A stretch of DNA of 62,293 nucleotides, counting the filler. It is 3 parts of 3 records of this genome, joined end to end, with 100 filler letters (N's around TTAATTAATTAA, not from the genome) between each part and the next. Parts side by side here need not be neighbours in the genome. Positions count along the whole stretch, not along the records: positions 1 to 18,389 come from DRR378314_1407; 2 more parts are not named here. The stretch is one strand, 5' to 3'. Under the pieces are notes generated by a model. That model saw nothing but the letters and a program-made list of their open reading frames with translations. It was not told the origin of the DNA and made no database searches. Below, one piece after another: positions 14,753-33,546 of the stretch. Each line of letters opens with the position of its first letter. Positions within the stretch are counted from its first letter, which is position 1. Made by a program: the position numbers and the translations under genes.

Positions 14753-16123
14753 ATGTCGTATACAGATAACATCGTAGCTTTGGCAACACCCTCAGGAACA
14801 GGGGCCATTGCTGTAATCCGCGTTTCAGGACAAGATGCCATAATCTTAGTGGATAAGTTGTTCAAGTCCATTAAAGATAAAAAGTTGGTGGAACAGAAAA
14901 GCCATACCATCCATTTGGGGAATATTGTCGATGGTGATAAAATTCTGGATGAGGCGTTGGTGTCCATTTTTAAAGGGCCACATTCCTATACAGGTGAAAA
15001 TGTGGTGGAGATTTCTTGTCACGGTTCCCCTTTTATCCAACAACAGATTATTCAATTATTACTGAGGAATGGCTGTCGTGCTGCATCTGCTGGCGAATAT
15101 ACGTTGAGGGCATTCCTTAATGGCAAAATGGATTTGAGTCAGGCTGAAGCTGTGGCCGACCTTATCGCTAGCGATAGCGAAGCAGCCCACGATATTGCTA
15201 TGCAACAAATGCGTGGCGGATTCAGTAACGAAATCCAAGAGTTACGACAAGAACTCCTCAATTTTGCCTCACTTATTGAATTGGAACTCGATTTTTCCCA
15301 AGAAGATGTGGAGTTCGCGGACAGGACCCAGTTCAACGAATTGCTTACCAAAATCAGCAACGTTCTTAAAAAACTGATTGATTCCTTTGCTCTTGGCAAC
15401 GTAATCAAAAACGGAATTCCTGTAGCTATTGTAGGGCAGCCCAACGTTGGTAAATCAACCTTGCTCAATGTTTTGTTGAACGAGGAAAGAGCCATCGTTA
15501 GTGAAATCGCAGGTACCACGCGAGATACGGTTGAGGACCACATCAGCATTAAAGGCATCGGTTTTCGGTTTATTGATACCGCAGGAATCCGAGAAACGGT
15601 AGATGTTGTGGAGAAAATAGGCATTGAGCGAACTTTTGACAAAATTGAAAAAGCCCGGCTCATAATTTATCTGTTTGACGGAATGGATTTTAACAAAACT
15701 GAATTGGAACAACTACAGCAACGTTATCCCAACAAACAATTGTTGCCCATCTGCAACAAAATGGACCTCTTAAATCCAAATCAAAAAGAAAAAATCCAAT
15801 CAGAAATACCCGATGTGCTCTTCCTTTCCGCAAAACACAAAGAAGGTATTTCCGAACTGGAAAGCAGGCTTCTTTCTTTGGTCGATTCAGGAGCATTGAG
15901 CGGAGACACCACTATCATTACCAATAGCAGGCACTACGACGCCCTATTGAAGGCACTGGAAGAAATCCAAAAAGTAAAAGAAGGTTTGGATATGGAACTG
16001 TCCAGCGACTTGATGGCCATTGATATTCGTCAAGCACTGTATCATTTGGGAGAAATCACGGGAAGTGTGACCACCGATGACCTATTGGGTAACATATTTT
16101 CAAATTTTTGTATCGGAAAGTAA
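14753..16123 (+). CDS. mnmE: tRNA modification GTPase MnmE
   Basis: GQPNVGKS, GTTRD, DTAGIR, NKMD, C-terminal FCIGK. Confidence 0.97.
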   Translation: MSYTDNIVALATPSGTGAIAVIRVSGQDAIILVDKLFKSIKDKKLVEQKSHTIHLGNIVDGDKILDEALVSIFKGPHSYTGENVVEISCHGSPFIQQQIIQLLLRNGCRAASAGEYTLRAFLNGKMDLSQAEAVADLIASDSEAAHDIAMQQMRGGFSNEIQELRQELLNFASLIELELDFSQEDVEFADRTQFNELLTKISNVLKKLIDSFALGNVIKNGIPVAIVGQPNVGKSTLLNVLLNEERAIVSEIAGTTRDTVEDHISIKGIGFRFIDTAGIRETVDVVEKIGIERTFDKIEKARLIIYLFDGMDFNKTELEQLQQRYPNKQLLPICNKMDLLNPNQKEKIQSEIPDVLFLSAKHKEGISELESRLLSLVDSGALSGDTTIITNSRHYDALLKALEEIQKVKEGLDMELSSDLMAIDIRQALYHLGEITGSVTTDDLLGNIFSNFCIGK

Positions 16124-16489
16124 TCAAACCGTACACTCCAATTAGTTTGTTGTCAACTAAAAACGGAGAGACTTGATTTAAAATAAACCAAATAAACGGT
16201 TTCACTCTCAATTTAAATCCTTTCCTTTACATTCCATTATGTATTAAGGACAACGATTGCTCCAATCCTTAAAATAAAAAGATGGCCCACTGTTACTAAT
16301 TTCCAATTATTCAGGGTCGTTTCTTACTATTTTTTGCTTGTAACAATATCCTCATCAAAGGCCAGTGAGGCCAAAGTCTAAAATTCTACTGGTCAAGGAA
16401 TTACTATGTATTTCTTTGGAAGAACACTATGCTTTAGAAAAAAGCGTCGTTCTATGGCCGTATTCAAAAGAATAAATTAAATATAAGAT

Positions 16490-16684
16490 ATGCTAAAAAT
16501 CAAATTGGTTCCTGGTGAGAACATAGAAAGAGCTTTGAAAAGATACAGAAACAAAGTTCGAAACACTAAACAACTAAAAAACATTAGGAACAATCAAGAA
16601 TTTACCAAAAAATCCAAGGAGAAAAGAGAGCTTCTCGCAAAGGCCGTCTACAAAAATGAGTACCTGAAAAAGAACGAGGAGTAA
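16490..16684 (+). CDS. rpsU: 30S ribosomal protein bS21, probable second paralog
   Basis: GENIERALKRY...F.KKS...R...KAVY pattern; 64 aa, highly basic; divergent sequence and non-standard neighbourhood. Confidence 0.88.
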   Translation: MLKIKLVPGENIERALKRYRNKVRNTKQLKNIRNNQEFTKKSKEKRELLAKAVYKNEYLKKNEE

Positions 16685-16688
16685 TTTT

Positions 16689-17423
16689 ATGGATAAAGAT
16701 TTAAACCTAGCCGTCTTAATCGATGGTGATAATATTCCTTCCAAATATGTCAAAGAGATGTTGGAGGAGATTGCAAAATATGGTAACCCCAGCATTAAGA
16801 GAATTTATGGGGATTGGACTAAACCAAGTTTGATAAAATGGAAAGATGTCCTATTAAAAAATGCCATCACCCCTGTTCAACAATACGGATATACCACTGG
16901 GAAGAATTCCACGGACAGTGCCATGATCATCGATGCGATGGACATTCTCTATTCTGGCAAGGTAAATGGGTTTGCCTTGGTGTCCAGCGACAGTGATTTT
17001 ACAAGACTCGCCATACGCCTGCGAGAAGCAGGAATGACCGTGTTCGGTATTGGGGAGCGAAAAACCCCTGATCCATTTATCGTTTCCTGCGATAAGTTCA
17101 TTTATCTGGAAATTCTACAAAAACCCCATTTGGGAGAATCCAACGCACCGCAGAAGAACGATAAAAACAAAGTCGACAAAATTACTCCGAAGGTGATCGA
17201 CCTGATATTGACCACCATAGCAGATGTGGAAGATGAGGAAGGTTGGGCATTCTTGGGCGAAGTGGGCACCCTCCTTCAAAAAAAACAGCCCAATTTTGAT
17301 GCAAGAAACTATGGTTTTCGAAAGTTGACGCCTTTGGTAAAATCATTGAATCAAATTGAAATCGGTTCCAGAAAAAACCCTAAGGGCAATGGGAACCTTA
17401 TTTATGTAAGGACAAGAACCTAA
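16689..17423 (+). CDS. NYN (PIN-like) domain protein with C-terminal OST-HTH/LOTUS domain
   Basis: LIDGDN, YGDW, KNSTDSAMIIDAMD, SSDSDF; C-terminal GWAFLGEVG...FDARNYGFRKL. Confidence 0.92.
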   Translation: MDKDLNLAVLIDGDNIPSKYVKEMLEEIAKYGNPSIKRIYGDWTKPSLIKWKDVLLKNAITPVQQYGYTTGKNSTDSAMIIDAMDILYSGKVNGFALVSSDSDFTRLAIRLREAGMTVFGIGERKTPDPFIVSCDKFIYLEILQKPHLGESNAPQKNDKNKVDKITPKVIDLILTTIADVEDEEGWAFLGEVGTLLQKKQPNFDARNYGFRKLTPLVKSLNQIEIGSRKNPKGNGNLIYVRTRT

Positions 17424-17434
17424 TAATAAAGCCG

Positions 17435-18301
17435 ATGAGACCTCTAGCCATATCAAAACAGATTACCAAAAGGGACACCCCCTCCCTTACCAGATATCTT
17501 AACGATATTGCCCGTATTCCGATGATTACGGAGGAAGAAGAGGTTGAACTGGCAATTCGAATCCGAAATGGTGACGTTCCGGCACTGGAGAAATTGGTAC
17601 GATCTAATCTACGGTTCGTGGTTTCGGTAGCCAAACAATACCAGTCAAGGGGCATGAATCTTCACGACCTTATCAATGAGGGGAATCTTGGCCTGGTAAA
17701 AGCGGCTACAAAATTTGATGAAACGCGGGGCTTCAAATTTATTTCCTATGCAGTTTGGTGGATTCGCCAGGGCATTATTCAGGCACTTTCCGAAAAATCC
17801 AGAATGGTGAGGTTGCCGCTGAACAAAATCAATGTCATCAATAAAATAAATCGGGCCTCCTCCCATTTTGAGCAAGTTAATCAGAGACCTCCCACGGCAG
17901 AAGAAATATCAGAATTGATTGATTCTTCTTTGTCGGAAATTAAACTTTGTTTAAAGCACTCATCGTGGCCCATATCCATGGACGAATCATTAAAAGTTGG
18001 GGAAGATGGCTTTAACTTGCACGATATTATGCATTCGGATGACAGCATTAATCCAGACCAAAACTTGCTCAAAGGTTCATTGGGATTGGAAATAGATGAT
18101 GTTTTGGAAATGCTTCCCTATCGTGAGGCTTTCATTATTAAAATGTACTTTGGAATTGGTGCCAAGGATACGATGGGCCTAGAACAAATTGCCCTTAATT
18201 TAGAATTGACGACCGAAAGGGTCAGACAAATCAAGGTGAAAGCTTTGGCTCGGTTAAGGAACTCCTCCAAAGTTGAGCTATTGAAGGAATATTTGGAATA
18301 A
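17435..18301 (+). CDS. RpoD/SigA-family sigma-70 factor, divergent paralog
   Basis: Regions 1.2-4: NLRFVVSVAKQY, DLINEGNLGL, FISYAVWWIRQ, ERVRQIK; lacks region 1.1 like Bacteroidota primary sigmas. Confidence 0.92.
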   Translation: MRPLAISKQITKRDTPSLTRYLNDIARIPMITEEEEVELAIRIRNGDVPALEKLVRSNLRFVVSVAKQYQSRGMNLHDLINEGNLGLVKAATKFDETRGFKFISYAVWWIRQGIIQALSEKSRMVRLPLNKINVINKINRASSHFEQVNQRPPTAEEISELIDSSLSEIKLCLKHSSWPISMDESLKVGEDGFNLHDIMHSDDSINPDQNLLKGSLGLEIDDVLEMLPYREAFIIKMYFGIGAKDTMGLEQIALNLELTTERVRQIKVKALARLRNSSKVELLKEYLE

Positions 18302-18360
18302 TACAGCCAAATGTTAAGGAACTGATTATACGTTTAATGTTATAATGGGTGTTTTGGCTT

Positions 18361-18389
18361 CATGTTGAACTTGTTTCAACATCTCATTC
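18361..18389. repeat. palindromic REP-like element at the contig end
   Basis: ATGTTGAA-CTTGT-TTCAACAT hairpin followed by CTCAT; resembles the flavobacterial CATGCTGAACTTGTTTCAGCATCT intergenic repeat. Confidence 0.55.
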
Positions 18390-18489
18390 NNNNNNNNNNN
18401 NNNNNNNNNNNNNNNNNNNNNNNNNNNNNNNNNTTAATTAATTAANNNNNNNNNNNNNNNNNNNNNNNNNNNNNNNNNNNNNNNNNNNN
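18390..18489. other. artificial contig spacer
   Basis: 44 N + TTAATTAATTAA (stops in all six frames) + 44 N. Confidence 0.98.
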
Positions 18490-18540
18490 AGATTTATTAT
18501 CCAGAGTTCAGGTTAAATACCTAACGAGTAAGGATTTAGT

Positions 18541-19062
18541 ATGAAGACTCACTTGGTACCTTTGTTATCTGCGGGCATGCTTTTAGCACCTAGCGATGTC
18601 GATGCCATTCCAAATTGGTACAGTGTAAACGATTCGGTCATGGGCGGGCTTTCGACTAGTCAAGTTTACGAAAAGAATAACCACTTAGTCTTTGCAGGAA
18701 CTGTGTCACTTGAGAATAATGGCGGCTTTGCCTCTGTACGCACTATCATCAATACAGAAAATGAACCTTCTAAACAGATTGCATTGCGCGTAAAAGGTGA
18801 TGGCAAAACCTATCAACTTCGTTTAAGAACTAATCAATATATGGATGGCCCTGCTTATGCGGTTTCGTTTGATACACAAAAAGACCAATGGCAGGTTTTT
18901 ACATTTTCACCCAGTGATTTTATTTTGACCTTTCGTGGACGAGAGCTCGAACAACAACCAACTATTAACTTTTTAAAAATTAGTCAGTTGGGTTTTATGA
19001 TTGCTAAAAAACAGCAAGGTGAGTTTAAATTAGAAATTAGTGAAATTGCTTTTAATGGGTAG
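18541..19062 (+). CDS. CIA30 family protein
   Basis: W..VNDSVMGGLS, SLENNGGFAS, VKGDGKTY. Confidence 0.9.
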   Translation: MKTHLVPLLSAGMLLAPSDVDAIPNWYSVNDSVMGGLSTSQVYEKNNHLVFAGTVSLENNGGFASVRTIINTENEPSKQIALRVKGDGKTYQLRLRTNQYMDGPAYAVSFDTQKDQWQVFTFSPSDFILTFRGRELEQQPTINFLKISQLGFMIAKKQQGEFKLEISEIAFNG

Positions 19063-19157
19063 TATTATTTATTAGATTGTTTAGGCTATAAATAAGGGCT
19101 GATTATATTCAGCCCATGAGTAAGTAACATCCATAAAAGCGCTTTATATGGCTACTT

Positions 19158-19634
19158 TTACGACTCTACCTTTAATAATTCAACTTCAAAAATAAGTAAA
19201 GACGCAGGAGGAATGCTCCCTACACGCTTTTCACCATAAGCTAATTGGTGTGGAATATAAAAGGTGTATTTATCGCCCTCGCTCATTAATTGTAAGCCTT
19301 CAGTCCACCCCTTTATTACTTGGTGCAAGCCAAAACTAATCGGACTGTTTCGCTCAACTGAACTGTCAAAAACACTGCCATCAAGCAAGGTGCCATGGTA
19401 GTGAACGTTCACCATGCTTTTAGGGTTAGGTTTTACATCAGAGCCACTGCTGTACTCAATTTTGTATTGTAGCCCTGAAGCTGTCTCTGTTATGCCTTCA
19501 ACTTTAGTGTTGGTAGCTAAAAAGTCACTGCCAAGCTGCGCATTAGCAAGCGATTGTTGCTTAACTTTTTTACTGTTTTGAAAGATTAAGTAGCAAAATA
19601 TAGCGATAATTATCACTAAAATAATATTAATCAT
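19158..19634 (-). CDS. FKBP-type peptidyl-prolyl isomerase, N-terminally membrane-anchored
   Basis: TASGLQY, VHYHGTLLDGSVFDSS, VIKGWTEGL, LAYG, FEVELL. Confidence 0.93.
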   Translation of the reverse strand: MINIILVIIIAIFCYLIFQNSKKVKQQSLANAQLGSDFLATNTKVEGITETASGLQYKIEYSSGSDVKPNPKSMVNVHYHGTLLDGSVFDSSVERNSPISFGLHQVIKGWTEGLQLMSEGDKYTFYIPHQLAYGEKRVGSIPPASLLIFEVELLKVES

Positions 19635-22048
19635 GATTCTTCACTCTGTTCTTTTTCGTCTTCGTCACTATCGCCATTGACGATATCGGCAATATTATTT
19701 AATCGTGCTAAGGCAATGCCATTAACGGAATCTTCAGGGTAATGGCCATCAACCAGCTCACCAGCGTCAATATCCATTAATGCGTTAAGAGCTTGATCAA
19801 CTGTTTCGACGGCATAAATGTGAAATTTACCTCGTTCAACAGCGGTAAGTATTTCGTCATCGAGTACCAAGTTAACTTGGTTCGATTTAGGCACAATCAC
19901 ACCTTGCTGACCCGTTAAACCGCGCATTTTACAGAGTTTGAAAAAGCCTTCTATTTTTTCATTTACGCCACCGATGGCTTGTACATCACCATGTTGGTTA
20001 ATTGAGCCTGTTAGTGCAATTGATTGGCTTATTGGTAAGTTAGTAATTGCCGAAATCAGCGCACACAACTCAGCCAATGACGCGCTATCACCATCTATAT
20101 AGCCATAGCTTTGCTCGATAGCGATATTAGCACTGAGCGTTAAACTAAATTGCTGAGCGTACTTATTGCCCAAGTAACCGGTAAGTAGCATGACCCCTTT
20201 AGAGTGGATTGCTTTACCAAGCTCCGCTTCACGTTCTACGTCAATTACGCCATCAGCCCCAGCGTATACTGTGGCAGTAATACGTGCAGGCGTACCAAAT
20301 GATGTATCACCAATGTGTAATACAGTTAGGCCATTCACTTTACCCACGGCTTGGCCGTCAGTAGCGATTAGGGTGTGCCCTTCTTTAATGTCGCTGAGCA
20401 TGTTTTCGCTAATTTGCCCTGTGCGGTATTGCTTACCTTCAATTGCTTCATCAATATGATGAGCATCAATTAGGCTTAAATTATCTTGTTTGGTGTAAAA
20501 GCTGGCTTCTGCCACAAGCTCTAGCACGTCAGCAAAACGCGCTGATAGTTTATTATGGTGTTCAGCTTGGCGATAACTAAACTTAAGTAGTCTAACCATA
20601 GCTGATTCGGTCAAACTACACTTTAGCGTATCTAGGCAATACTCAGTCACTTTAGTGATAAACTGATATTGCAGTTTGTCACTACTAGGTAAGTAGTAAT
20701 CAAAGTCCGCTAACACTCTAAATAATTCAGCAAACTCTTCGTCGTACTCACCAATGGTGTAGTACAAATCTCGTGAGCCTAGCAAAATAATTTTCACATC
20801 AAGGGGTATTAACTGCGGACGAAGTGTAAAACTGCTGCCTACAGCACTGTCTTGATATGGTAGGTCATTTTTAATCTGATGCGTTTTTAATGACAGCTTT
20901 AAGCCATCCCACACTTGTGGGTTAGCCATGACTTTTTCAGCATCCATAATCAAATAGCCGCCATTAGCACGGTGAAGAGCCCCTGGCTGAATTGAGCGAT
21001 AGCTAGTGATCAACGAACCTTGCGACGCGGCATACTCTATCTTGCCAAAGATATTGCCAAACGTTGGGTTGGGTTCATAGACGACCGGCGCTGCATCGCC
21101 TTCTTTAAATTCGACCAAAATATTGGGCGCAAAAAAGTCGGTCAACATGCCTTTGCTATCAAAGTCTTCTTTGTTTTCTTCGCTGACATCTTCGTCGTCA
21201 AGCCATTCAAGAACCGCATCAATAATTTCAACTCGAATGTCTTTTAAATAACGAAGCACGCCGATATGAGCAGCGTATTTATGTTCTAAATCTTTTAACA
21301 ACGGTTTAGTCGCCAGCTCTGCAGTGGACTTTTTTAAATTCCGTAGTTTTTCTGAGGACTCACGTTTCCAACGAGGTAACTCTATTAATGCTTCGATTAA
21401 GGCATCTTCTAGTTTTTCGATAACCTCATAAAATTGCTCGCGCAAATCATCATCAAGGGCTGCAAATTCAGCATCACTTAACTGCTTGCCATTCACTAAC
21501 GGAGCAAACCCCACTACGCTTTTTTCTTCAATTAAAGCAACGCTCTGTTCAAGTGCAGCAATTTCAACTTCGGTGATTGCCGCGTCATAGGCGTCATTAA
21601 ACTCACGGTCTATTTTTTTCTTTTTACGCTGATAAGCTGGGTTATCAAATGCTGCCGGAAAAGTGTCGAGCACTTCATCAATAAACGAGTCGATATCATC
21701 GGCCAATTGCTTACTTTGCCCTGCTTGTAAAAACATCGCGATTGGCTCACGGTGATCATCGTAATTATTAACGTACAACCACTCATTTGGCGTCGGGCGG
21801 CCTTTACTGTGCGCCTCTAATTTATCTTTTACTAAAGTAAAGCGACCATGGGCAGCTTCCCCCATGACATACACATTGTAACCGGGAAGCTCCATCCCCA
21901 ATGAAAAATCCAGCGCACTTTGAGCGCGCTGTTGACCGATAAAAGTCAAGGTTTCAGGATACGGATTATTCATGCACGATTGCACATGATTAAGTGAAAT
22001 AGTCGGCGCTAACGCAGACACAGGTAATGGCAGCAGTTTTTTCGTCAT
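19631..22048 (-). CDS. Lon-like protease (AAA-like domain + Lon_C S16 domain)
   Basis: GALHRANGGYL, DGDSAS (catalytic Ser), IGGVNEK (catalytic Lys); start taken at ATG 22048. Confidence 0.9.
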   Translation of the reverse strand: MTKKLLPLPVSALAPTISLNHVQSCMNNPYPETLTFIGQQRAQSALDFSLGMELPGYNVYVMGEAAHGRFTLVKDKLEAHSKGRPTPNEWLYVNNYDDHREPIAMFLQAGQSKQLADDIDSFIDEVLDTFPAAFDNPAYQRKKKKIDREFNDAYDAAITEVEIAALEQSVALIEEKSVVGFAPLVNGKQLSDAEFAALDDDLREQFYEVIEKLEDALIEALIELPRWKRESSEKLRNLKKSTAELATKPLLKDLEHKYAAHIGVLRYLKDIRVEIIDAVLEWLDDEDVSEENKEDFDSKGMLTDFFAPNILVEFKEGDAAPVVYEPNPTFGNIFGKIEYAASQGSLITSYRSIQPGALHRANGGYLIMDAEKVMANPQVWDGLKLSLKTHQIKNDLPYQDSAVGSSFTLRPQLIPLDVKIILLGSRDLYYTIGEYDEEFAELFRVLADFDYYLPSSDKLQYQFITKVTEYCLDTLKCSLTESAMVRLLKFSYRQAEHHNKLSARFADVLELVAEASFYTKQDNLSLIDAHHIDEAIEGKQYRTGQISENMLSDIKEGHTLIATDGQAVGKVNGLTVLHIGDTSFGTPARITATVYAGADGVIDVEREAELGKAIHSKGVMLLTGYLGNKYAQQFSLTLSANIAIEQSYGYIDGDSASLAELCALISAITNLPISQSIALTGSINQHGDVQAIGGVNEKIEGFFKLCKMRGLTGQQGVIVPKSNQVNLVLDDEILTAVERGKFHIYAVETVDQALNALMDIDAGELVDGHYPEDSVNGIALARLNNIADIVNGDSDEDEKEQSEES

Positions 22049-22122
22049 TCTAACTTCTTTTTGTATCAGCACATCAGCTGATTAATTTTAATAGCGGCAA
22101 AGCGATGGGCCAACCCACTATT

Positions 22123-22581
22123 TTATGGTTGTAATGCCTTACGAGAAAAATAGATACCGTCGCACTGCGAACAAGCTCTAATTTGCGTGGCATGATAAAT
22201 ATCATAACTATGGCTGCAATTCTTACATACTAATGTGCCCATGGCTATCCATTCACCTTGGTGATAAACGCCATTATGCTTAAAATCTTGGTTTAATGCG
22301 TGCCATTCTAGTTGGGTTTTATCTTCTATGTGTGAAAGTTCAAACCACAAAGATTCCTTAAGCTCTTGCCATGCAAGTGAATCATAGTGATTGTCGTTTT
22401 CTTTAATGTGTTCAATGTCACGTTTTAAGTATTCGCGGTACAGCGTTAGCTTTTCTTGACCTAATTGCTTGAGTGCTTGTTCAGATTCAACAAACTTATC
22501 CATTGCACCTTTAAGCTCGTGCTCTTTTACATCTTTTAACCAGGCACTTAAATCTGTTAACCATGCTTTATAATCAGCCAT
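22123..22581 (-). CDS. zinc-ribbon protein (YbeL/DUF1451)
   Basis: DKTQLEW, YHQGE...CKNC...CSQC; divergent from leuS. Confidence 0.85.
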   Translation of the reverse strand: MADYKAWLTDLSAWLKDVKEHELKGAMDKFVESEQALKQLGQEKLTLYREYLKRDIEHIKENDNHYDSLAWQELKESLWFELSHIEDKTQLEWHALNQDFKHNGVYHQGEWIAMGTLVCKNCSHSYDIYHATQIRACSQCDGIYFSRKALQP

Positions 22582-22766
22582 TATGTACTCCTTTAAAACT
22601 ACGTTAAATCAGTGTTTACCTTAAACAAGTATAGGTTAACCTGCCCTGAAAACTAATTAAGTCATGAATTTATAAAATCCGCTTATTTGCCGCTGTGATT
22701 AGTACTATTTTTGGGGTATCCTATTCGGCAATTTTTTACTAGTTTGCAAGAAGTCTGGAATCATAG

Positions 22767-25355
<2,589 letters not shown>

Positions 25356-25356
25356 T

Positions 25357-25851
25357 ATGGCATCATTCAATGCCTTTAAAAACGGACTAGCCTTAGTGCT
25401 AGTCTGTTTTTTACTTACCAGCTGTAGCTTTCACTTAAAAAAAGCGTCGAGCTTACCTGATGATTTAAAAATCATGACTCTTCATGGGGATGATGAAAAG
25501 TCAGCTCTTTTTGCCATCCTTGAAAAAGAACTCACTTTAAGCAAAGTTGAATTGCAATCAGAACCTGCAAAAAATGTTGCACAACTGTATTTGTCTAAAG
25601 ACCGTTTAGAGCGCCAGATTTTGTCGTTATTTAAAAATGGTCAGGTGGCCGAATACGAACTCGCTTACAGTGTTGCATACACCCTAAAACGCCCAGGCCT
25701 TGATCCAATCGAGCAAAGTTTTGAGCTATACCGCAATTACCAAGATGACCCAGATAACGCACTTGCGAAAGCCAAAGAACTTGATTTATTGCTTAATGAA
25801 ATACGTAAGCAAGCAAGTCGTAGGATAGTACGAGAGTTGTCACAACTATAA
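25357..25851 (+). CDS. lptE: LPS assembly lipoprotein LptE
   Basis: Lipobox LTSC-SFHL; position between leuS and holA. Confidence 0.9.
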   Translation: MASFNAFKNGLALVLVCFLLTSCSFHLKKASSLPDDLKIMTLHGDDEKSALFAILEKELTLSKVELQSEPAKNVAQLYLSKDRLERQILSLFKNGQVAEYELAYSVAYTLKRPGLDPIEQSFELYRNYQDDPDNALAKAKELDLLLNEIRKQASRRIVRELSQL

Positions 25852-26888
25852 TGCGCTGTTACGCTAACCAATTATCGAGTGAATTAAATAAAGCACTCCA
25901 GCCTTTTTATTTAGTGTTTGGTGAAGAGCCTTTTCAAATAGCGCAATGCGCACAACAAATTCGCTCAAAAGCCAAGCAGCAAGGCTTTGACGAAGTCATA
26001 AAATTTACATTGATGCCCGGCTTTGATTGGCAAGAGTTAATCGCGCAATATCAAAGTATGTCGTTATTTAGTGCTCGTACTTTAATTGAGCTTGATCTCA
26101 ATTATCAAAAACCTGGCACTGTTGGCAGCCAAACATTTAAAAAACTGGTTGAACTCAATAACCCCGACACACTTCTAATAGTAACTGGCGCCAAAGCAAG
26201 CCAAGAAATTCAGCGCAGTGCATGGTTTAAAGCGTTAGATAAAAACGGTGTATTTGTCCCTTGCTACCCATTATCTGGCAATCACCTACAACGTTGGCTC
26301 GATGAGCAGTGCAACCGTTTATCAATTAATATGCAAAATGATGCTAAACGTACGCTGATTGATGCAACTGAAGGTAATTTACTCGCTTGTTTTCAAGAGC
26401 TTGAAAAACTATCATTGCTTCACGGAAGTGCGCTTATTGATCAACAATTAGTACTTCAAGGTTTACTTAATCAAGCTAAATTCGATATTTTCGATTTAAG
26501 TGATGCACTCTTGCAAGGTAATAACCGCCAAGCAATTAAAATTCTCACCAAGCTTGCAGATCATAATACTGAAGCGGTCACTATTTTATGGGCTATAAAC
26601 AAAGAAGCAAATACACTATTGAGTTTGCAATTAGGCCTATTACAAGGCGAGAGTTTAACAAGTTTATTTAAACAAAAAGCGATTTGGAAAAACCAGCAAG
26701 GGCCTGTTAATCAAGCGCTAAACCGCTTATCTATACAAACACTTGAGCATCTGATCAGTTTGCTCGCACAATTTGATGCAAGTTATAAGCAAGGCACCTT
26801 GATTAAACCATACCAAGCTCTGGCGCATATATGCCTCGTTTTTTGCCAACCGGTTGATGTTGCTCTCCCCGCTCACCCACTTGTTTAA
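25851..26888 (+). CDS. holA: DNA polymerase III delta subunit
   Basis: YLVFGEEP, SMSLFS, EGNLLA..QELEKL; synteny. Confidence 0.93.
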   Translation: MRCYANQLSSELNKALQPFYLVFGEEPFQIAQCAQQIRSKAKQQGFDEVIKFTLMPGFDWQELIAQYQSMSLFSARTLIELDLNYQKPGTVGSQTFKKLVELNNPDTLLIVTGAKASQEIQRSAWFKALDKNGVFVPCYPLSGNHLQRWLDEQCNRLSINMQNDAKRTLIDATEGNLLACFQELEKLSLLHGSALIDQQLVLQGLLNQAKFDIFDLSDALLQGNNRQAIKILTKLADHNTEAVTILWAINKEANTLLSLQLGLLQGESLTSLFKQKAIWKNQQGPVNQALNRLSIQTLEHLISLLAQFDASYKQGTLIKPYQALAHICLVFCQPVDVALPAHPLV

Positions 26889-26902
26889 AATTAGGAGCCA
26901 AA

Positions 26903-27538
26903 ATGATTGCACTATTTGGTGGTACATTCGACCCCATTCATTTAGGCCATATCAATATGGCTAAGCAATGTGTTGAGCACTTGAACCTTCGTTATTTACA
27001 ATTTATGCCATGTGCCATTCCTGCACATAAAGCGGTACCAGGGATCAGCAACGAAGATCGCATTGCAATGTTACAGGCTGCTATTGAACCTTATGATTAT
27101 TTTTCACTCGACTTGCGTGAGCTAAAACGCCAAGGACCCTCTTATTCGCTATTGAGCTTAAAAGAATTACGCAATGAATACCCTCACGAACCCATTTTAT
27201 TTTTAATTGGCCTTGATTCGTTTAATACGCTTGATAAATGGTTTGAATGGCAAGCAATTACACAGCTTTGTCACCTTGTTGTCTTTCAACGCCCTAATCA
27301 AAATATTAATTTGAGCACGCAGCTTATTGATTATAAAAAAAAGGCCCTTACAACATCATCTGACACGCTTCGCTCTGAACGTGCTGGGAGACTGTATTTC
27401 TTACCTGGTCAAATGATGGATATTGCGTCGAGCGATATTCGAAAAAAACTAAAAAAAGGCCAATCGTGTGAGGAACTTCTTCCTACTGCGGTGAGTCAGT
27501 ACATAAACGATCATCAACTTTATCTAAGTGGTGAATAA
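26903..27538 (+). CDS. nadD: nicotinate-nucleotide adenylyltransferase
   Basis: GGTFDPIHLGH, LIGLDS, IASSDIR; AGGAG SD. Confidence 0.95.
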   Translation: MIALFGGTFDPIHLGHINMAKQCVEHLNLRYLQFMPCAIPAHKAVPGISNEDRIAMLQAAIEPYDYFSLDLRELKRQGPSYSLLSLKELRNEYPHEPILFLIGLDSFNTLDKWFEWQAITQLCHLVVFQRPNQNINLSTQLIDYKKKALTTSSDTLRSERAGRLYFLPGQMMDIASSDIRKKLKKGQSCEELLPTAVSQYINDHQLYLSGE

Positions 27539-27592
27539 AAATCACCAGCGTGATAAAATAACAGCTATTCCCTTTTTTAATGAGATAACACT

Positions 27593-27910
27593 TTGGATTC
27601 GAAACAACTACTCGCCTTTGCACTAGACAAAATTGACGATATGAAAGCCCGTGATGTGGTTCAGATTGATGTAAAAGGCAACTCTGACATTACTGACTAT
27701 ATGCTTGTTTGTTCAGGTAACTCTAAACGTCATGTGCAATCAATTGCTGATCATGTTGCTAAAGAAGCGCGTCATGCCGGTGAAGAGCCTCTTGGATACG
27801 AAGGTCAAAATGAAGGCGAATGGGTTCTGGTAGATTTAGGTGATGTAGTCGTACACGTGATGCAAGATCAAGCACGTAGCTACTATGACCTAGAAAAGCT
27901 CTGGAGCTAA
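27593..27910 (+). CDS. rsfS: ribosome silencing factor
   Basis: DDMKARD, SGNSKRHV, WVLVDLGDVVVHV, YDLEKLW. Confidence 0.95.
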   Translation: MDSKQLLAFALDKIDDMKARDVVQIDVKGNSDITDYMLVCSGNSKRHVQSIADHVAKEARHAGEEPLGYEGQNEGEWVLVDLGDVVVHVMQDQARSYYDLEKLWS

Positions 27911-27946
27911 TAGCCCTTTATTTAAACTGAGTTTGGAAGGACACGC

Positions 27947-28417
27947 GTGAAAATACAAATGATTGCCGTTGGTACAAAAATGCCAGCGTGGGTAGAGACC
28001 GGGTTCGCAGAATACCAGCGTCGCTTTCCAAAAGATATGGCATTAGAACTTATTGAAATCCCAGCAGGAAAGCGCGGCAAAAATGCCGACATAAAGCGGA
28101 TTTTACATATCGAAGGCGAAAAAACCCTTGCGGCAATACCTAAAGGTAATCGTATTGTGACACTTGAAGTCACCGGCAAAGCACTTGATACACACCAACT
28201 AGCAAAAAATATGGAAAAGTGGCAACTGGATGGCCGCGATGTAAGTTTGTTGATTGGTGGTCCGGAAGGATTAGCACCAGAATGTATTGCAGCCTCCGAA
28301 CAAAAGTGGTCATTATCGAACTTGACCTTGCCGCACCCATTAGTGCGCATTATTGTAGCTGAAAGCTTGTATCGAGGATGGAGTTTAAACAATAACCATC
28401 CTTATCATCGCGAGTAA
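27947..28417 (+). CDS. rlmH: 23S rRNA pseudouridine-1915 methyltransferase
   Basis: [21 protein letters not shown]. Confidence 0.96.
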
Positions 28418-28422
28418 TCAAC

Positions 28423-30303
28423 ATGCTCAAACGAAGACCCACAATTCGAGATCACTCAGCAGAGGCTAATCTGTTTGCACGTCGCGCATTTGTGGGTTTT
28501 GTTTTCGTTACTATTCTTGTCGCTATATTACTTTCAAATTTGTACACCATCCAAGTTGATGATCACCAAGATTATCAAACGCGTTCGAACGACAATCGCA
28601 TAAAGGTTATTCCAATTGCACCCAATAGAGGTCTTATATATGACCGAAATGGTGTGCTTCTTGCCGAAAACAAGCCTGTTTATAACCTTGAAGTTATACC
28701 CGAAGATGTTAAGAATCTTGATGACTCGTTAGCAGCCATTAGTCAACTCATCGCTATTTCTGATCAGCAAAAAAATGACTTTCTTAACGACATCAAGCAT
28801 AACCGCCGCTTTAAAAGCCAAGTATTAAAAGCGCGACTGAACGAATCTGAAGTCGCTAAATTCTCGGTTAACCAGCATAAATTCCCTGGTTTTAGTATTG
28901 AGGCCCGTCTTGCTCGTTACTACCCTTATGCCGACACGCTGACCCATGCGCTTGGGTATGTTGCTAAATTAAACAAAAAAGAGCTCGCTAGGCTCGAAAT
29001 GGATGATCAAGCCACCAATTACAGAGCAACTCATGACATTGGTAAACTTGGTATTGAAAAGTATTATGAACAACTGTTACATGGGCAAGTAGGTTCACAG
29101 CGTGTTGAAGTAAACAACCGAGGACGTGTAATTCGAACGCTGAGTATGACGCCACCCGAACCAGGCCATGATTTAGTGTTAACACTCGATATTGGATTAC
29201 AACAAATTGCACAACATGCATTAAAAGACATGCGCGGTGCAATTGTGGTGATGGACGCAAAAGACGGTGGCGTTTTGGCGCTTTATTCGAACCCAAGCTA
29301 CGACCCAAATTTGTTTGTTCATGGTATCAGTAGTAAAAATTATAAAGCATTACTAAACCCCGACCGTCCACTTATAAATAGAACAACTCAAGGGCGATAT
29401 GCACCGGCATCAACTGTAAAACCGCACCTTGCTATACTTGCTCTTGAAGAAGGTTTAGTAACAGAGCAAACAAAAATGTGGGATCCTGGTTTTTTTCAAA
29501 TCCCCAATGTAGAACACAAATGGCGTGACTGGAAGCGCTGGGGCCATGGTCATGTTGATGTTTACAAAGCAATTGAAGAGTCATGTGATACCTATTTTTA
29601 TGACACGGCTTATCGTTTGGGGATCACCAAAATCAGCAACTTTATGGCGCAATTTGGCTTCGGTGATTTAACAGGCATTGATATTCACGAAGAAACTAGC
29701 GCTATTTTACCATCAAAAGAATGGAAAGAAGGCCGCTTTCGTGAGTCGTGGTGGCGAGGAGATACTATTTCCGTCGGAATTGGACAAGGTTACTGGACAG
29801 CCACGCCTATGCAGATTGCAAACGCAACTAATATTCTCGTTAATAAGGGCCGTAATTTCCCACCCCACTTAGTCCAAGTTGCAAAAAAAGAAGATGAAGT
29901 AACGCAAATAAATAATGAAGAAAAGCCTCCCGTTGAATTGAAAAATGCTGATCACTGGCGTATTGCTCTGGATGCAATGCATAATACTGTGCATAAAGTA
30001 ACGGGAACGGCTCACAAAGCATTCAGGGGGGCAACTTATGATCCGGCAGGTAAAACTGGTACAGCTCAAGTAGTCAGTATCGCCCAAGGTGAGCGTTACG
30101 ATGCAGAATCACTCAAAGAAAGACAACGCGACAATGCAATTTATATTGGTTTTGCCCCGTACAAAGACCCTCAAATTGTGGTTTCAGTGGTGGTAGAAAA
30201 TACCGGTGGAGGTAGCTCTGTTGGCGCCCCTATTGCTCGTCAGTTAATGGATTATTATTTTTCAGCAAATCCTCTAACGATTGCAAGGAGTGCTAAACAA
30301 TAA
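28423..30303 (+). CDS. mrdA: penicillin-binding protein 2
   Basis: STVK, SCD and KTG motifs. Confidence 0.96.
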   Translation: MLKRRPTIRDHSAEANLFARRAFVGFVFVTILVAILLSNLYTIQVDDHQDYQTRSNDNRIKVIPIAPNRGLIYDRNGVLLAENKPVYNLEVIPEDVKNLDDSLAAISQLIAISDQQKNDFLNDIKHNRRFKSQVLKARLNESEVAKFSVNQHKFPGFSIEARLARYYPYADTLTHALGYVAKLNKKELARLEMDDQATNYRATHDIGKLGIEKYYEQLLHGQVGSQRVEVNNRGRVIRTLSMTPPEPGHDLVLTLDIGLQQIAQHALKDMRGAIVVMDAKDGGVLALYSNPSYDPNLFVHGISSKNYKALLNPDRPLINRTTQGRYAPASTVKPHLAILALEEGLVTEQTKMWDPGFFQIPNVEHKWRDWKRWGHGHVDVYKAIEESCDTYFYDTAYRLGITKISNFMAQFGFGDLTGIDIHEETSAILPSKEWKEGRFRESWWRGDTISVGIGQGYWTATPMQIANATNILVNKGRNFPPHLVQVAKKEDEVTQINNEEKPPVELKNADHWRIALDAMHNTVHKVTGTAHKAFRGATYDPAGKTGTAQVVSIAQGERYDAESLKERQRDNAIYIGFAPYKDPQIVVSVVVENTGGGSSVGAPIARQLMDYYFSANPLTIARSAKQ

Positions 30304-31406
30304 TGCAATTACATGATAAGCGGTCTATTTGGGATAAATTACATTTAGATTTACCTCTGCTACTTGCATTGGTTTGTATGATGGTTGCCAGTTTAACTAT
30401 TGTTTACAGCGCAAGTGGTCAAAATGAAGCAATGATGCTTCGCCACGCTACCCGCATGGCCGCAGCTGTTATAGCGATGATTGTCTTAGCGCAATTTAGC
30501 CCAGCGACACTGAAGCGGCTAGTGATCCCTTTGTACTGCTTAGGGCTACTCATGTTGGTTGGGGTGATACTTTTTGGTGTTAGCTCAAAAGGTGCGCAGC
30601 GCTGGTTGGATTTAGGAGTCACTCGCTTTCAACCGTCCGAGCTAATGAAGCTGGCCGTCCCAATGATGGTTGCATGGTATATCGGGCGAAATCACCTCCC
30701 TCCGAGAGCATTACATTTAATGGTTGGCTTTGCCATCGTGATTTTACCCACTTTACTTATAATGGAGCAGCCAGATCTTGGCACATCTATTCTGATAGCA
30801 AGTTCAGGTATATTTGTCATATTTTTATCAGGACTAAGTTGGCGTCTAATTGGGTTTTTAACAGGCTTGGTTACCTTATCCGCTTGGCCTTTTTGGCATT
30901 ACGGAATGCATGCATATCAAAAGCAACGTGTACTGACCTTATTTAATCCTGAAAGTGACCCTTTAGGTTCTGGTTATCATATAATCCAGTCTAAAATAGC
31001 CATTGGTTCTGGCGGAATTGAAGGTAAAGGCTGGCTACAAGGTACACAATCACAACTCGAGTTTTTACCTGAGCGCCACACTGATTTTATTTTTTCAGTT
31101 CTCAGTGAAGAGTTTGGTCTGTTTGGCGTATGTTTGCTGCTATGTATGTATTTATTTATTATAGGCCGCGGTTTATACATTGCCGTCAATGCGCAAGATG
31201 CGTTTGGTAAGTTGCTCGCAGGTGCTCTGACCCTTACTTTTTTCGTTTATGTATTTGTAAACATTGGTATGGTATCTGGGCTCTTACCGGTTGTCGGCGT
31301 CCCTTTGCCGCTGATAAGTTATGGTGGAACGTCAATGGTTACACTGATGGCTGGCTTTGGCATAATTATGTCGATTGCCACTGATAAGAGGATGCTTTTA
31401 AAATAA
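30303..31406 (+). CDS. rodA: rod shape-determining protein RodA
   Basis: FQPSELMK, QPDLGT, PERHTDF, SYGGTS. Confidence 0.96.
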   Translation: MQLHDKRSIWDKLHLDLPLLLALVCMMVASLTIVYSASGQNEAMMLRHATRMAAAVIAMIVLAQFSPATLKRLVIPLYCLGLLMLVGVILFGVSSKGAQRWLDLGVTRFQPSELMKLAVPMMVAWYIGRNHLPPRALHLMVGFAIVILPTLLIMEQPDLGTSILIASSGIFVIFLSGLSWRLIGFLTGLVTLSAWPFWHYGMHAYQKQRVLTLFNPESDPLGSGYHIIQSKIAIGSGGIEGKGWLQGTQSQLEFLPERHTDFIFSVLSEEFGLFGVCLLLCMYLFIIGRGLYIAVNAQDAFGKLLAGALTLTFFVYVFVNIGMVSGLLPVVGVPLPLISYGGTSMVTLMAGFGIIMSIATDKRMLLK

Positions 31407-32185
31407 TGAAGTGGATGTTGAAGTATATAAGCCTGATGCTTATTGCGCTTATTGTAAGCGGCTGTAGTAGTTCAGGAAGTAAAACAGATCACAGTAGTCG
31501 TTATAGCATGAGGCATGATGCTGCGCCTTTACGCGCACCAACCGTTTTAGAAATGCAGGATGCTGTTGTAACTGAAGTAATAAAAAGTGCAAGCGCCGGC
31601 CGCCCTTACACTGTACTTGGTAAAAGCTATACCCCCATGCTGGATGAAACGGGCTACGAAGAAGAAGGAATAGCCTCGTGGTATGGCCGAAAATTTCACG
31701 GTTATCACACATCAAACGGTGAAATCTATGATATGTTTGCCATGACTGCAGCACATAAAACTTTGCCCTTGCCGAGCTTTGTTCGAGTCACTAATACCGC
31801 CAATGGTAAATCTGCCATTGTTCGCGTCAATGATCGAGGCCCTTTTCATGATGATAGAATCATAGATTTATCATACGCAGCGGCTTATAAGCTTGGTTAT
31901 TACAATCATGGTACAGCCAAGGTTAAGCTTGAGGCAATTACACTAGCGCATTCGCCTACACGCCCTAGTTATATTCAAGTTGCAGCGGGAAGCACATTAG
32001 CAAATATTGAAGCACTTGCCTCAACCCTGCGCCAACAATATAATTTACCTACAAGTATTGTAGAAAAAGATGCCATTTATAGGTTGCGACTTGGACCAAT
32101 TAAAAACGCTGAAGAAGCTCAGCAAGTGCTAGAAAAATTAAAACAAAACCAATTTCAAAACGCGTTCTTGCTTTACAGCCAGTAA
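31406..32185 (+). CDS. rlpA: septal ring lytic transglycosylase RlpA
   Basis: Lipobox, ASWYG, TAAHKTLP, VNDRGPF, C-terminal SPOR domain. Confidence 0.94.
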   Translation: MKWMLKYISLMLIALIVSGCSSSGSKTDHSSRYSMRHDAAPLRAPTVLEMQDAVVTEVIKSASAGRPYTVLGKSYTPMLDETGYEEEGIASWYGRKFHGYHTSNGEIYDMFAMTAAHKTLPLPSFVRVTNTANGKSAIVRVNDRGPFHDDRIIDLSYAAAYKLGYYNHGTAKVKLEAITLAHSPTRPSYIQVAAGSTLANIEALASTLRQQYNLPTSIVEKDAIYRLRLGPIKNAEEAQQVLEKLKQNQFQNAFLLYSQ

Positions 32186-32230
32186 GCGCTTTAGAATGAG
32201 AACAACGCGAATCTTTAACTTTAACCATTA

Positions 32231-33400: not shown

Positions 33401-33420
33401 TTGCTAATTTAATAATTCTA

Positions 33421-33450
33421 AGCGCCTTGCACTGCAAGGCGTTTTTTTTT
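33421..33450 (+). terminator. Rho-independent terminator after dacA
   Basis: GCGCCTTGC-ACT-GCAAGGCGT followed by a T-run. Confidence 0.8.
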
Positions 33451-33546
33451 GCCTGAAAAATGCTAGAATGCGCCTCATATCTAACCTACAAGGTCGAGTG
33501 TGGGTTATTAGTCGGTTATAAGCGCATTATGTAAGGAGTCATCGTC

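What the first reader, a model, noticed from the sequence alone, without database searches (positions are those of the whole stretch)
16490..18301. Accessory rpsU-2 / NYN-LOTUS RNase / RpoD-paralog operon: candidate module acting on translation, RNA decay and transcription together
Seen: three tightly packed co-oriented genes (gaps of 4 and 11 nt) downstream of mnmE: a divergent bS21, an NYN protein with intact acidic motifs plus OST-HTH, and a divergent primary-type sigma. Established: in Flavobacterium, bS21 helps sequester the anti-Shine-Dalgarno sequence (Tyr54 implicated; Tyr54 is retained here) and the primary rpsU mRNA has a strong SD for autoregulation, which this copy lacks. Alternative bS21 paralogs alter translation in Francisella. 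The layout echoes the rpsU-dnaG-rpoD operon with an RNase in place of primase. Inference: a stress or dormancy cassette that swaps a ribosomal protein and a sigma factor while remodelling RNA. I know of no description of this three-gene system.
Basis: partly seen in the sequence, partly recalled or inferred. Interest (0 to 1): 0.78.

Follow-up and report, generated by a model that had tools for sequence, protein, structure and literature searches.

The report
Accessory S21, RNase and sigma operon
A marine flavobacterium carries, beside its normal copies, a tight operon of a spare ribosomal protein S21, a conserved RNA-cutting enzyme and a spare sigma factor, and in related genera the same spare S21 sits beside cold-shock genes, so it looks like a cold or RNA-stress switch acting on transcription, translation and RNA decay together.

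Summary
Three co-oriented genes lie at 16490-18301 with gaps of 4 and 11 nt: a divergent bS21 ("bS21x"), an NYN+LOTUS protein and a 288-aa sigma-70 paralog.

- **Spare copies.** The nearest held genome, G001, has the same operon at 99-100% protein identity. It also has a canonical rpsU with a strong Shine-Dalgarno (SD) sequence and a pnp-linked primary rpoD.
- **Recurrence.** The triad occurs in at least 7 genera of Flavobacteriaceae. Its sigma is found in 25 of 61 species of the window's genus.
- **Leader.** A ~190-nt conserved, single-copy noncoding leader (16198-16383) always precedes the operon in that genus.
- **Cold-shock link (new).** In 6 genera a cold-shock gene (csp) lies 51-72 nt upstream of this bS21 type. 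It is separated by a terminator hairpin in 5 of those 6 spacers. A fatty-acid desaturase, with or without csp, adjoins the module in other genomes.
- **Second pairing.** A different sigma paralog sits directly upstream of a different accessory bS21 type in at least 9 genera.

My best reading, at about 0.5, is a low-temperature or RNA-stress module. It is a new variant of the known csp-rpsU and rbpA-rpsU cold operons. No expression data could be obtained. The window is three glued contigs, so genes after 18390 are not neighbours of the operon.

The parts
16198..16383 (+). Conserved, single-copy noncoding leader of the operon (candidate promoter/operator or 5' leader)
   Evidence: It aligns at 62-90% identity among 6 genomes although dS is saturated. 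A profile built from it hits upstream of the module in 20 of 20 fetched loci of the genus, whatever the flanking genes are. There is only one copy in G001 and in G020. No Rfam match, no consensus fold on 23 sequences, and two hand-picked hairpins do not exceed shuffles. Coordinates were transferred from the hit in L008 (9191-9376) with an offset of 7007.
16490..16684 (+). bS21x: accessory ribosomal protein bS21 of 'type C' (64 aa)
   Evidence: Pfam S21 at 38.9 bits, below the NCBIfam equivalog cut-off. Tyr54 is kept, Ile55 is Lys and KPS reads KKS. No SD. It falls in a clade separate from canonical type A and accessory type B. dN/dS is 0.06-0.15.
16689..17423 (+). NYN (PIN-like) nuclease domain plus C-terminal LOTUS/OST-HTH domain: a MARF1-like protein
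   Evidence: Pfam NYN at 133 bits and OST-HTH at 61 bits. Five Asp residues are invariant. dN/dS is about 0.02. Orthologs are 66-78% identical in 66 of 151 genera of the family and about 70% identical in other Bacteroidota and in Ignavibacteria records. An SD-like hexamer lies 7 nt before the ATG.
17435..18301 (+). Divergent group-1-like sigma-70 paralog (regions 1.2, 2, 3, 4; no region 1.1, as in Bacteroidota primary sigmas)
   Evidence: Pfam regions. It is 57% identical to G001's primary RpoD, while primary RpoDs are 94-96% identical between genera. Region 2 is 79% identical to the primary sigma, region 3 45% and region 4 51%. It lies outside the well-supported clade of primary plus other paralogs (100/98). 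dN/dS is 0.06-0.08.

Best explanation
This is a real, selectively maintained operon of spare gene-expression parts. I read it as a low-temperature or RNA-folding-stress module.

**Proposed working (inferred, not shown)**
- A conserved ~190-nt leader drives one transcript that encodes three products.
- bS21x is an accessory bS21 that lacks the SD by which the canonical rpsU is autoregulated in Flavobacteriales. It can therefore be made independently of the bS21 feedback loop. It fills or replaces bS21 on 30S subunits. Tyr54 is kept, but the neighbouring contact residue and the KPS motif are changed, which may tune how the anti-SD tail is held.
- The MARF1-like NYN-LOTUS RNase binds RNA through its LOTUS domain and cuts RNA at or near ribosomes.
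- The fast-evolving sigma-70 paralog keeps the core-binding and -10-recognition region 2 but has diverged regions 3 and 4. It redirects RNA polymerase to a sub-regulon.
- In sister genera the same bS21 type is fed by read-through of the terminator behind a cold-shock gene. In others it is paired with a fatty-acid desaturase. The trigger is therefore most likely a temperature downshift or the RNA-structure stress that comes with it.

**Shown:** anatomy, spare status, recurrence, purifying selection, and the csp/desaturase context.
**Inferred:** co-transcription, ribosome incorporation, RNase activity, promoter specificity and cold induction.
For: **Spare copies**
- G001, which has the same operon at 99-100% identity, has 3 bS21 genes (69.8, 47.8 and 38 bits) and 4 sigma genes.
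- The canonical rpsU has an SD and sits by xerC/hpf. The primary rpoD sits between pnp and rpe.
- 11 of 11 canonical copies carry an SD, against 0 of 26 accessory copies.

**Recurrence**
- The triad is in 5 of the 30 best NYN loci of a sample of 151 genera, in 5 of the 80 best loci across GTDB species, and in G428.
- It is complete in 18 of 20 fetched loci of the genus, with the leader present in 20 of 20.

**Selection**
- dN/dS is 0.02-0.15 where it could be computed. dS is saturated, yet the leader still aligns.

**Cold-shock context**
- csp lies 51-72 nt upstream on the same strand in G134, G115, G104, G044, G048 and G133.
- These genomes hold only 2-7 CSD (cold-shock domain) genes each.
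- A terminator hairpin with a U-run is present in 6 of 7 csp-to-bS21x or csp-to-sigma spacers.
- A desaturase, with or without csp, is adjacent in G039 and G020 and in 6 of 20 loci of the genus.
- Overall, 8 of 12 family-level type-C-like bS21 loci with at least 5 kb of flank have csp or desaturase within 3 kb.

**Coupling of sigma and bS21**
- A second module, in which a sigma paralog 76-83% identical to RpoD is followed by a type B bS21, occurs in 8 of 30 loci and in G134.

**Precedents from papers (passages read)**
- The S. meliloti cspA-rpsU cold-shock operon and the Anabaena rbpA-rpsU operon, induced at low temperature (PMC4424878).
- A Burkholderia S21 paralog linked to low temperature (PMC7074383).
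- Synechocystis Rbp3 pulls down ribosomes together with two LabA/NYN proteins, one of them with an OST-HTH domain (PMC12232666).
- A bacterial LOTUS domain binds G-quadruplex RNA (PMC7498356).
Against: - The window's own copy, and G001, have no csp or desaturase within the flanks seen. G001's two CSD genes lie on other contigs.
- 14 of 20 loci of the genus show neither csp nor desaturase. 4 of 12 family-level type-C-like loci (G001 C17, G001 C21, G028, G013) have none.
- The named relatives are ordinary marine mesophile genera (their ecology is recalled, not tested).
- Csp proteins also serve in stationary phase and other stresses.
- The NYN-LOTUS gene stands alone in most genomes, so it need not be dedicated to this module.
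- No promoter was identified. The sigma-70-type scan found no more sites than shuffles do.
- The leader shows no supported RNA fold.
- Kin are not independent, so the counts overstate the number of evolutionary events.
Confidence: 0.5

Rival explanations
1. General stress or stationary-phase cassette. The spare sigma, spare bS21 and RNase are induced by starvation or other non-thermal stress. The csp/desaturase neighbourhood reflects a broad stress regulon rather than cold.
For: The spare status, recurrence and coupling evidence is the same as for the best reading. The window's own locus has no csp or desaturase. The best NCBIfam hit of the sigma is RpoS, although below the cut-off (246 against 378.7 bits). 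A Listeria paper links loss of rpsU to general stress resistance (PMC4424878).
Against: A desaturase next to csp is a classic low-temperature pair. The csp-then-terminator-then-bS21x layout matches known cold operons. Nothing in the loci points to starvation or dormancy genes; hpf lies beside the canonical rpsU, not beside this copy.
Confidence: 0.25
2. No functional coupling. The three genes are neighbours by descent in one clade, and each acts alone.
For: The triad-linked NYN genes form one clade, so the linkage may have arisen once. The parts occur separately: NYN alone in 24 of 30 and 75 of 80 loci, csp-bS21x without NYN or sigma in G044 and G048, NYN lost in G020 and G491, and leader-sigma alone in G502.
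Against: Order and 2-20 nt gaps are kept across at least 7 genera with saturated dS. The leader moves with the module to different chromosomal sites. An independent pairing of sigma and bS21 paralogs exists in the same family.
Confidence: 0.1
3. bS21x works off the ribosome, as an RNA-binding adaptor or regulator of the NYN-LOTUS nuclease or of a ribonucleoprotein.
For: The two genes are 2-5 nt apart in all triads. bS21x has lost the KPS motif. A paper title and abstract report bS21 as a component of the OLE ribonucleoprotein complex (PMC12054373, search listing only).
Against: The same bS21 type occurs without NYN in G044, G028, G048, G133 and G001 C21. NYN occurs without it in most genomes. 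The ribosome-contact residue Tyr54 and full length are kept.
Confidence: 0.08
4. Mobile, phage-derived or anti-phage defence module.
For: Distribution in the genus is patchy (25 of 61 species) and the chromosomal site varies. Phages commonly encode bS21 (PMC9976891, passages). A repeat lies at the contig end.
Against: There is no PADLOC hit apart from the generic sigma part of MzaA. Only 4 phage records match bS21x, at 52% identity or less. No integrase or transposase was noticed in the flanks that were annotated. Base composition is unremarkable.
Confidence: 0.05

Closest known systems
csp-rpsU cold-shock operon of Sinorhizobium meliloti and the cold-regulated rbpA-rpsU cluster of Anabaena variabilis
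   Same: An RNA chaperone gene is followed by a bS21 gene. In 6 related genera csp lies 51-72 nt upstream of this bS21 type. Low-temperature induction is documented for the known cases (PMC4424878, passages).
   Different: Here the bS21 is a spare paralog beside an SD-regulated canonical copy. It is extended by an NYN-LOTUS RNase and a sigma paralog. The window's own copy has a conserved leader instead of csp. Cold induction is untested.
Macromolecular synthesis operon rpsU-dnaG-rpoD of E. coli
   Same: A bS21 gene and a group-1-type sigma gene sit in one co-oriented unit with one gene between them.
   Different: There is no primase. Both genes are spare paralogs. The canonical rpsU and rpoD of this lineage are unlinked. 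There is no evidence of common descent.
bS21 paralogs of Francisella tularensis, and the taxa with several bS21 genes listed by McNutt et al. 2023
   Same: There are several bS21 genes per genome, which are thought to make heterogeneous ribosomes (PMC9976891; PMC13374519, listing).
   Different: The passage of McNutt et al. that I read names no Bacteroidota. Here 54 of 151 genera of one family show 2-3 S21 matches (my count), in three sequence types. Two of those types are linked to sigma paralogs.
bS21 autoregulation and anti-SD sequestration in Flavobacterium johnsoniae
   Same: Same protein family and same lineage. Tyr54, which stacks on A1534, is kept (PMC7797042). Canonical copies carry the SD.
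   Different: bS21x has no SD, so it escapes that loop. Ile55 is Lys and KPS reads KKS.
MARF1-like NYN+LOTUS proteins (bacterial examples TP0894 and NE0665; Synechocystis Slr1870)
   Same: The same two-domain architecture. The LOTUS domain of TP0894 binds G4 RNA (PMC7498356). Slr1870 co-purifies with Rbp3 and ribosomes (PMC12232666).
   Different: No bacterial member has a tested nuclease function (PMC5499597). Operon linkage to bS21 and a sigma was not found in the papers searched.
Second RpoD homolog of Dokdonia
   Same: A Flavobacteriaceae genome with two RpoD-like sigmas, the second of unknown promoter specificity (PMC3587595).
   Different: It is not known which paralog lineage that one belongs to. 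The triad sigma is far more divergent (about 55% identity to RpoD).

Membership tests
Ribosomal protein bS21 (PF01165 / TIGR00030) | Profile match over the full length, above the curated cut-off | tested here: met
   Pfam 38.9 bits against a cut-off of 27, covering residues 4-56.
Ribosomal protein bS21 (PF01165 / TIGR00030) | NCBIfam equivalog score, which marks the housekeeping S21 | tested here: not met
   21.2 bits against a cut-off of 28.95. The canonical copy of G001 scores 69.8 Pfam bits against 38 for this one.
Bacteroidia-type bS21 | Signature Tyr54 that stacks on A1534 of 16S rRNA | tested here: met
   Gap-free alignment to 7JIL_z over residues 1-55. The role of Tyr54 comes from PMC7797042.
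Bacteroidia-type bS21 | Ile55 contact and the conserved KPS/T motif | tested here: not met
   Lys55, and KKS in place of KPS.
Canonical Flavobacteriales rpsU | Extended SD before the start codon (autoregulation) | tested here: not met
   None before bS21x. 11 of 11 canonical copies have it, against 0 of 26 accessory copies.
Ribosomal protein bS21 | Incorporation into 30S subunits | not testable with these tools
   Needs ribosome mass spectrometry.
NYN / PIN-like nuclease (PF01936) | Domain match and conserved acidic active-site residues | tested here: met
   133.2 bits. D12, D14, D76, D101 and D103 are invariant in 6 of 6 sequences. That these residues form the active site is by analogy to the family, not by structure.
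MARF1-like NYN+LOTUS architecture | C-terminal OST-HTH/LOTUS domain | tested here: met
   61.4 bits at residues 165-232. PDB matches 2kpm and 2kzv cover this part only.
MARF1-like NYN+LOTUS architecture | RNase activity and RNA binding | not testable with these tools
   Needs an enzyme assay.
Group 1/2 sigma-70 | Regions 1.2, 2, 3 and 4 present | tested here: met
   All four Pfam regions score above their cut-offs.
Primary sigma RpoD/SigA of the lineage | Orthology to the highly conserved housekeeping sigma | tested here: not met
   57% identity to G001's pnp-linked RpoD, while primary sigmas are 94-96% identical between genera. It lies outside the primary clade. All RpoD and RpoS equivalog models score below their cut-offs.
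rpsU-dnaG-rpoD macromolecular synthesis operon | Primase between rpsU and rpoD; housekeeping copies | tested here: not met
   The middle gene is NYN-LOTUS, and both flanking genes are spare paralogs.
csp-rpsU cold-shock operon | Cold-shock gene directly upstream of the bS21 gene | tested here: not met
   Not in the window or in G001. It is met in 6 related genera that carry the same bS21 type.
csp-rpsU cold-shock operon | Induction at low temperature | not testable with these tools
   No RNA run was available.
Anti-phage defence systems (PADLOC; MZA) | Match to a defence-system protein model beyond a generic domain | tested here: not met
   Only the sigma domain matches the C-terminal part of MzaA, at 144.9 bits. 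bS21x and NYN have no hit.

The most novel reading that the evidence does not exclude
The spare sigma and the spare bS21 form a matched pair, a semi-orthogonal expression channel. Transcripts started by the spare sigma carry leader features, for instance SD-like sequences such as the one before the NYN gene. Ribosomes carrying bS21x hold the anti-SD tail differently and so translate these transcripts preferentially. The NYN-LOTUS RNase meanwhile clears the old mRNA pool. The family would then have evolved this transcription-translation pairing at least twice, as module B and module C.
Probability: 0.12. Interest if true: 0.9.

Novelty: new variant of a known kind. Interest (0 to 1): 0.66.

Why it matters
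Bacteroidia ribosomes are unusual because bS21 helps to hide the anti-SD sequence. Ribosomes that lack bS21 translate a different set of mRNAs.

A widespread, selectively maintained set of spare bS21 genes escapes the known feedback loop and is hard-wired to spare sigma factors, a conserved RNase and cold-shock genes. This gives a natural, genetically tractable system for two questions:
- Do bacteria build specialised ribosomes on purpose?
- Do they coordinate those ribosomes with a change of promoter use and of RNA decay?

It also offers a first physiological handle on bacterial NYN-LOTUS (MARF1-like) proteins, for which the classification paper I read reports no functional study.

Tried and rejected
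- **Own genome.** Searching the window's own genome was not possible because the assembly is not held. G001 was used as a stand-in.
- **RNA evidence.** No RNA holder was listed. The four 'RNA?' runs proved to be low-depth DNA-like metagenome contigs when laid on the window. They say nothing on expression or co-transcription.
- **Rfam.** Nothing at E up to 1 on 15900-18389.
- **Leader as a structured RNA.**
  - The consensus fold on 6 sequences is weak (-6.3 kcal/mol) with 1 compensatory pair.
  - The single-sequence z-score is -1.57.
  - There is no consensus structure on 23 sequences.
  - Two hand-picked hairpins do not exceed shuffles; 112 of 500 shuffles reach the observed score.
- **Leader as a decayed csp gene or csp leader.** No CSP similarity (best E 0.085 over 11 aa). 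The profile finds nothing upstream of the csp-linked modules.
- **Promoter and terminator scan.** The sigma-70-type scan found no more sites than shuffles do. No exact Bacteroidota-type -7 motif was seen by eye.
- **Phage origin and defence.** See the rival explanation.
- **Literature.**
  - No Muricauda transcriptome was found.
  - No description of the triad was found.
- **Supplements not seen.** They may already record multiple bS21 genes.
Full report
**1. What is in the window**

ORF listing and sequence reading confirm three co-oriented ORFs at 16490-16684 (64 aa), 16689-17423 (244 aa) and 17435-18301 (288 aa). The gaps are 4 and 11 nt. They lie 366 nt downstream of mnmE, and gldG, dnaN and a DUF4870 gene lie further upstream.

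- ORF1 matches Pfam Ribosomal_S21 (38.9 bits) but stays under the NCBIfam equivalog cut-off.
- ORF2 is NYN (133 bits) plus OST-HTH/LOTUS (61 bits).
- ORF3 has sigma-70 regions 1.2, 2, 3 and 4, and no RpoD or RpoS equivalog model reaches its cut-off.

One correction matters for context. The window is three contigs joined by N-runs around a 12-nt stop-codon linker at 18390-18489 and 36859-36958. The CIA30, FKBP and Lon-like genes that follow are therefore not neighbours. The second contig has no DNA match in the nearest genome.

**2. Are these spare copies?**

The window's own assembly is not held. The nearest genome, G001, carries the same operon. bS21x and NYN are 100% identical, sigma is 99%, and the 216-nt upstream region is 100% identical.

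G001 has three S21 matches at 69.8, 47.8 and 38 bits, and four sigma genes of the 287-288-aa class.
- The best-scoring rpsU lies beside a tyrosine recombinase and hpf, and has an 8-nt SD. bS21x has none.
- One sigma lies between pnp and rpe. Proteins 94-96% identical to it exist in all ten other genomes tested, so it is the primary RpoD.
- The window's sigma is 57% identical to it.

In eleven genomes carrying an accessory bS21, the canonical copy was fetched. 11 of 11 canonical copies have the SD, against 0 of 26 accessory copies. The caveat is that G001 stands in for the window's own genome.

**3. Recurrence**

*Family level.* In a sample of one genome for each of 151 genera of the family, the NYN-LOTUS protein is found in 66.
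- Of the 30 best loci, 5 hold the full triad, 1 holds bS21x-NYN only, and 24 hold NYN alone among varied neighbours.
- Of the 80 best loci over all GTDB species, 5 hold the triad: Flagellimonas yonaguniensis, F. amoyensis, a Croceivirga MAG, [Muricauda] lutisoli and Flavobacteriaceae sp. LMIT009. The other 75 hold NYN alone, including Ignavibacteria, Cytophagia-type and Bacteroidales-type records at about 70% identity.

NYN-LOTUS is thus an old, very conserved gene that one clade has recruited. The triad-linked NYN genes form one clade.

*Phylum level.* A sample of 301 genomes found this bS21 type (E up to 1e-13) in only 2, both of the same family. The second of these, G428, also has the triad.

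*Genus level.* The triad's sigma is found in 25 of 61 species. In 20 fetched loci:
- the triad is complete in 18;
- NYN is missing in 1;
- bS21x and NYN are both missing in 1;
- the chromosomal site varies: beside mnmE in 3, beside a divergent desaturase-csp pair in 6, and elsewhere in the rest.

**4. A conserved leader**

About 190 nt upstream (window 16198-16383) aligns at 62-90% identity among genomes whose synonymous sites are saturated. It is single-copy in G001 and G020. It precedes the module in 20 of 20 loci of the genus, whatever lies further upstream. It belongs to the module.

I found no support for a conserved RNA fold and no Rfam match. A promoter/operator region, or a leader that depends on its sequence rather than its fold, is the more economical reading.

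**5. Selection and rates**

Where it could be computed, dN/dS is 0.06-0.15 for bS21x, about 0.02 for NYN and 0.06-0.08 for sigma. All three are under purifying selection, but bS21x and sigma change about three times faster than NYN.

In a maximum-likelihood tree the primary sigmas form a 100/100 clade with branches of 0.03 or less. Primary sigmas plus the other paralogs form a 100/98 clade that excludes every triad sigma. The triad sigmas sit on long branches in three or four lineages, and a single origin is not excluded.

Region 2 of the triad sigmas stays 74-89% identical to the primary sigma. Region 3 falls to 31-47% and region 4 to 47-60%. The window's lineage has Thr where the primary sigmas have the first Arg of the region 4.2 recognition helix. 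That this Arg contacts the -35 element is recalled from E. coli work and was not tested here.

**6. The cold-shock context (new)**

The accessory bS21 genes fall into two sequence types beside the canonical type A.

Type C, to which bS21x belongs, has a cold-shock-domain gene 51-72 nt upstream on the same strand in six genera. Three of them have the full triad and three do not. Those genomes hold only 2-7 CSD genes. In 6 of 7 spacers between csp and bS21x or sigma there is a strong hairpin followed by a U-run, ending 20-30 nt before the next start codon. That leaves little room for a separate promoter.

Other cold-related neighbours:
- G039 has bS21x-NYN-desaturase-csp on one strand.
- G020 and 6 of 20 species of the genus have a divergent desaturase, with csp beside it in those six species.
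- G104 has a fatty-acid hydroxylase-family gene after its sigma.

GH3 and DUF2797 genes flank both the triad of G115 and the csp-bS21x pairs of G044, G028 and G048. So csp-bS21x may be the older core, into which NYN and sigma were added, or from which they were lost.

Csp proteins acting as transcription antiterminators is recalled knowledge. One search gave only listings of papers that hold the terms. Read-through of the csp terminator is therefore a proposal.

**7. A second sigma-bS21 pairing**

In 8 of the 30 best bS21x-like loci, and in G134, a different sigma paralog lies 10-46 nt upstream of a type B bS21. This paralog is 76-83% identical to RpoD and sits inside the primary-like clade. 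Two different paralog lineages of each gene are thus linked in the same family. This is the strongest argument that the linkage is functional.

By my count from the table, 54 of 151 genera show two or three S21 matches. The tool warns that matches are not strict copy numbers.

**8. Comparison with what is known**

- bS21 paralogs are documented in Francisella, Burkholderia, cyanobacteria and rhizobia. The list I read in McNutt et al. names no Bacteroidota.
- The S. meliloti cspA-rpsU operon and the Anabaena rbpA-rpsU cluster are cold-regulated.
- Bacterial NYN+LOTUS proteins are called MARF1-like, and one LOTUS domain binds G4 RNA. Functional studies of bacterial NYN proteins are lacking according to the PIN-domain classification paper.
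- Two such proteins co-purify with an RRM protein and ribosomes in Synechocystis.
- Dokdonia is known to have two RpoD homologs.
- My searches found no description of the three-gene unit, or of linkage between sigma and bS21 paralogs in Flavobacteriaceae.

**9. Verdict**

The spare-copy and recurrence claims hold. The 'stress cassette' idea is sharpened to a cold or RNA-stress module at about even odds. The operon is a new variant of known cold-linked rpsU arrangements.

Co-transcription, induction, ribosome incorporation, RNase activity and promoter specificity all remain untested.

Noticed in passing
window 18390-18489 and 36859-36958: Two artificial joints (44 N, a 12-nt all-frame stop linker, 44 N) show that the window is three concatenated contigs. 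Contig 2 (18490-36858) has no DNA match in G001 at E up to 1e-20, although contig 1 is nearly identical to G001. It may come from another organism or from accessory DNA.
   Followed up: partly
window 18285-18380: The last ~100 nt of contig 1, just after the sigma gene, has about five times the summed contig depth of the rest in four metagenome runs. It contains an 8-bp AT-rich palindrome. It is probably a dispersed repeat that broke the assembly.
   Followed up: no
window 16669-16688 and the same place in related loci: An SD-like word of at least 5 nt lies 4-20 nt before the NYN start in 19 of 29 loci where NYN follows bS21x (16 of 25 after dropping 4 duplicate loci). It occurs in 6 of 75 stand-alone NYN genes. 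The word is made of the last Glu codons of bS21x. It is unusual in a lineage that avoids SD sequences and whose bS21-less ribosomes favour them.
   Followed up: partly
L051, L056, L057, L058, L061, L063, L066, L067; G134:C10:19208-20267: 'Module B': a second sigma paralog (76-83% identical to RpoD) lies directly upstream of a second accessory bS21 type in at least 9 genera. It has no SD and no NYN.
   Followed up: partly
family sample: 54 of 151 genera of the family show two or three S21 matches. Multiple bS21 genes therefore seem common in Flavobacteriaceae, a group not named in the published list that I read.
   Followed up: partly
L158 (G133:C3): This locus shows a variant layout. The order is csp-bS21x, then three small unassigned ORFs, then a second csp followed by a terminator and a very divergent sigma (51% identity, and the longest branch in the tree).
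   Followed up: no
L007 (G001:C19:221192-222049): The fourth sigma paralog of G001 is interrupted by a TAA, leaving a 241-aa ORF that lacks most of region 4. It is a possible pseudogene.
   Followed up: no
L002 / L159 (G001:C21:9350-9538): The third bS21 of G001 (type C-like, no SD) lies between a GNAT acetyltransferase gene and a 63-aa basic ORF upstream of proC. No csp, NYN or sigma is nearby.
   Followed up: no
L154 / L053 (G013:C10): The order is reversed in one genus. NYN-LOTUS is followed about 190 nt later by an accessory bS21 of another subtype, and a near-identical second copy lies elsewhere on the same contig.
   Followed up: no
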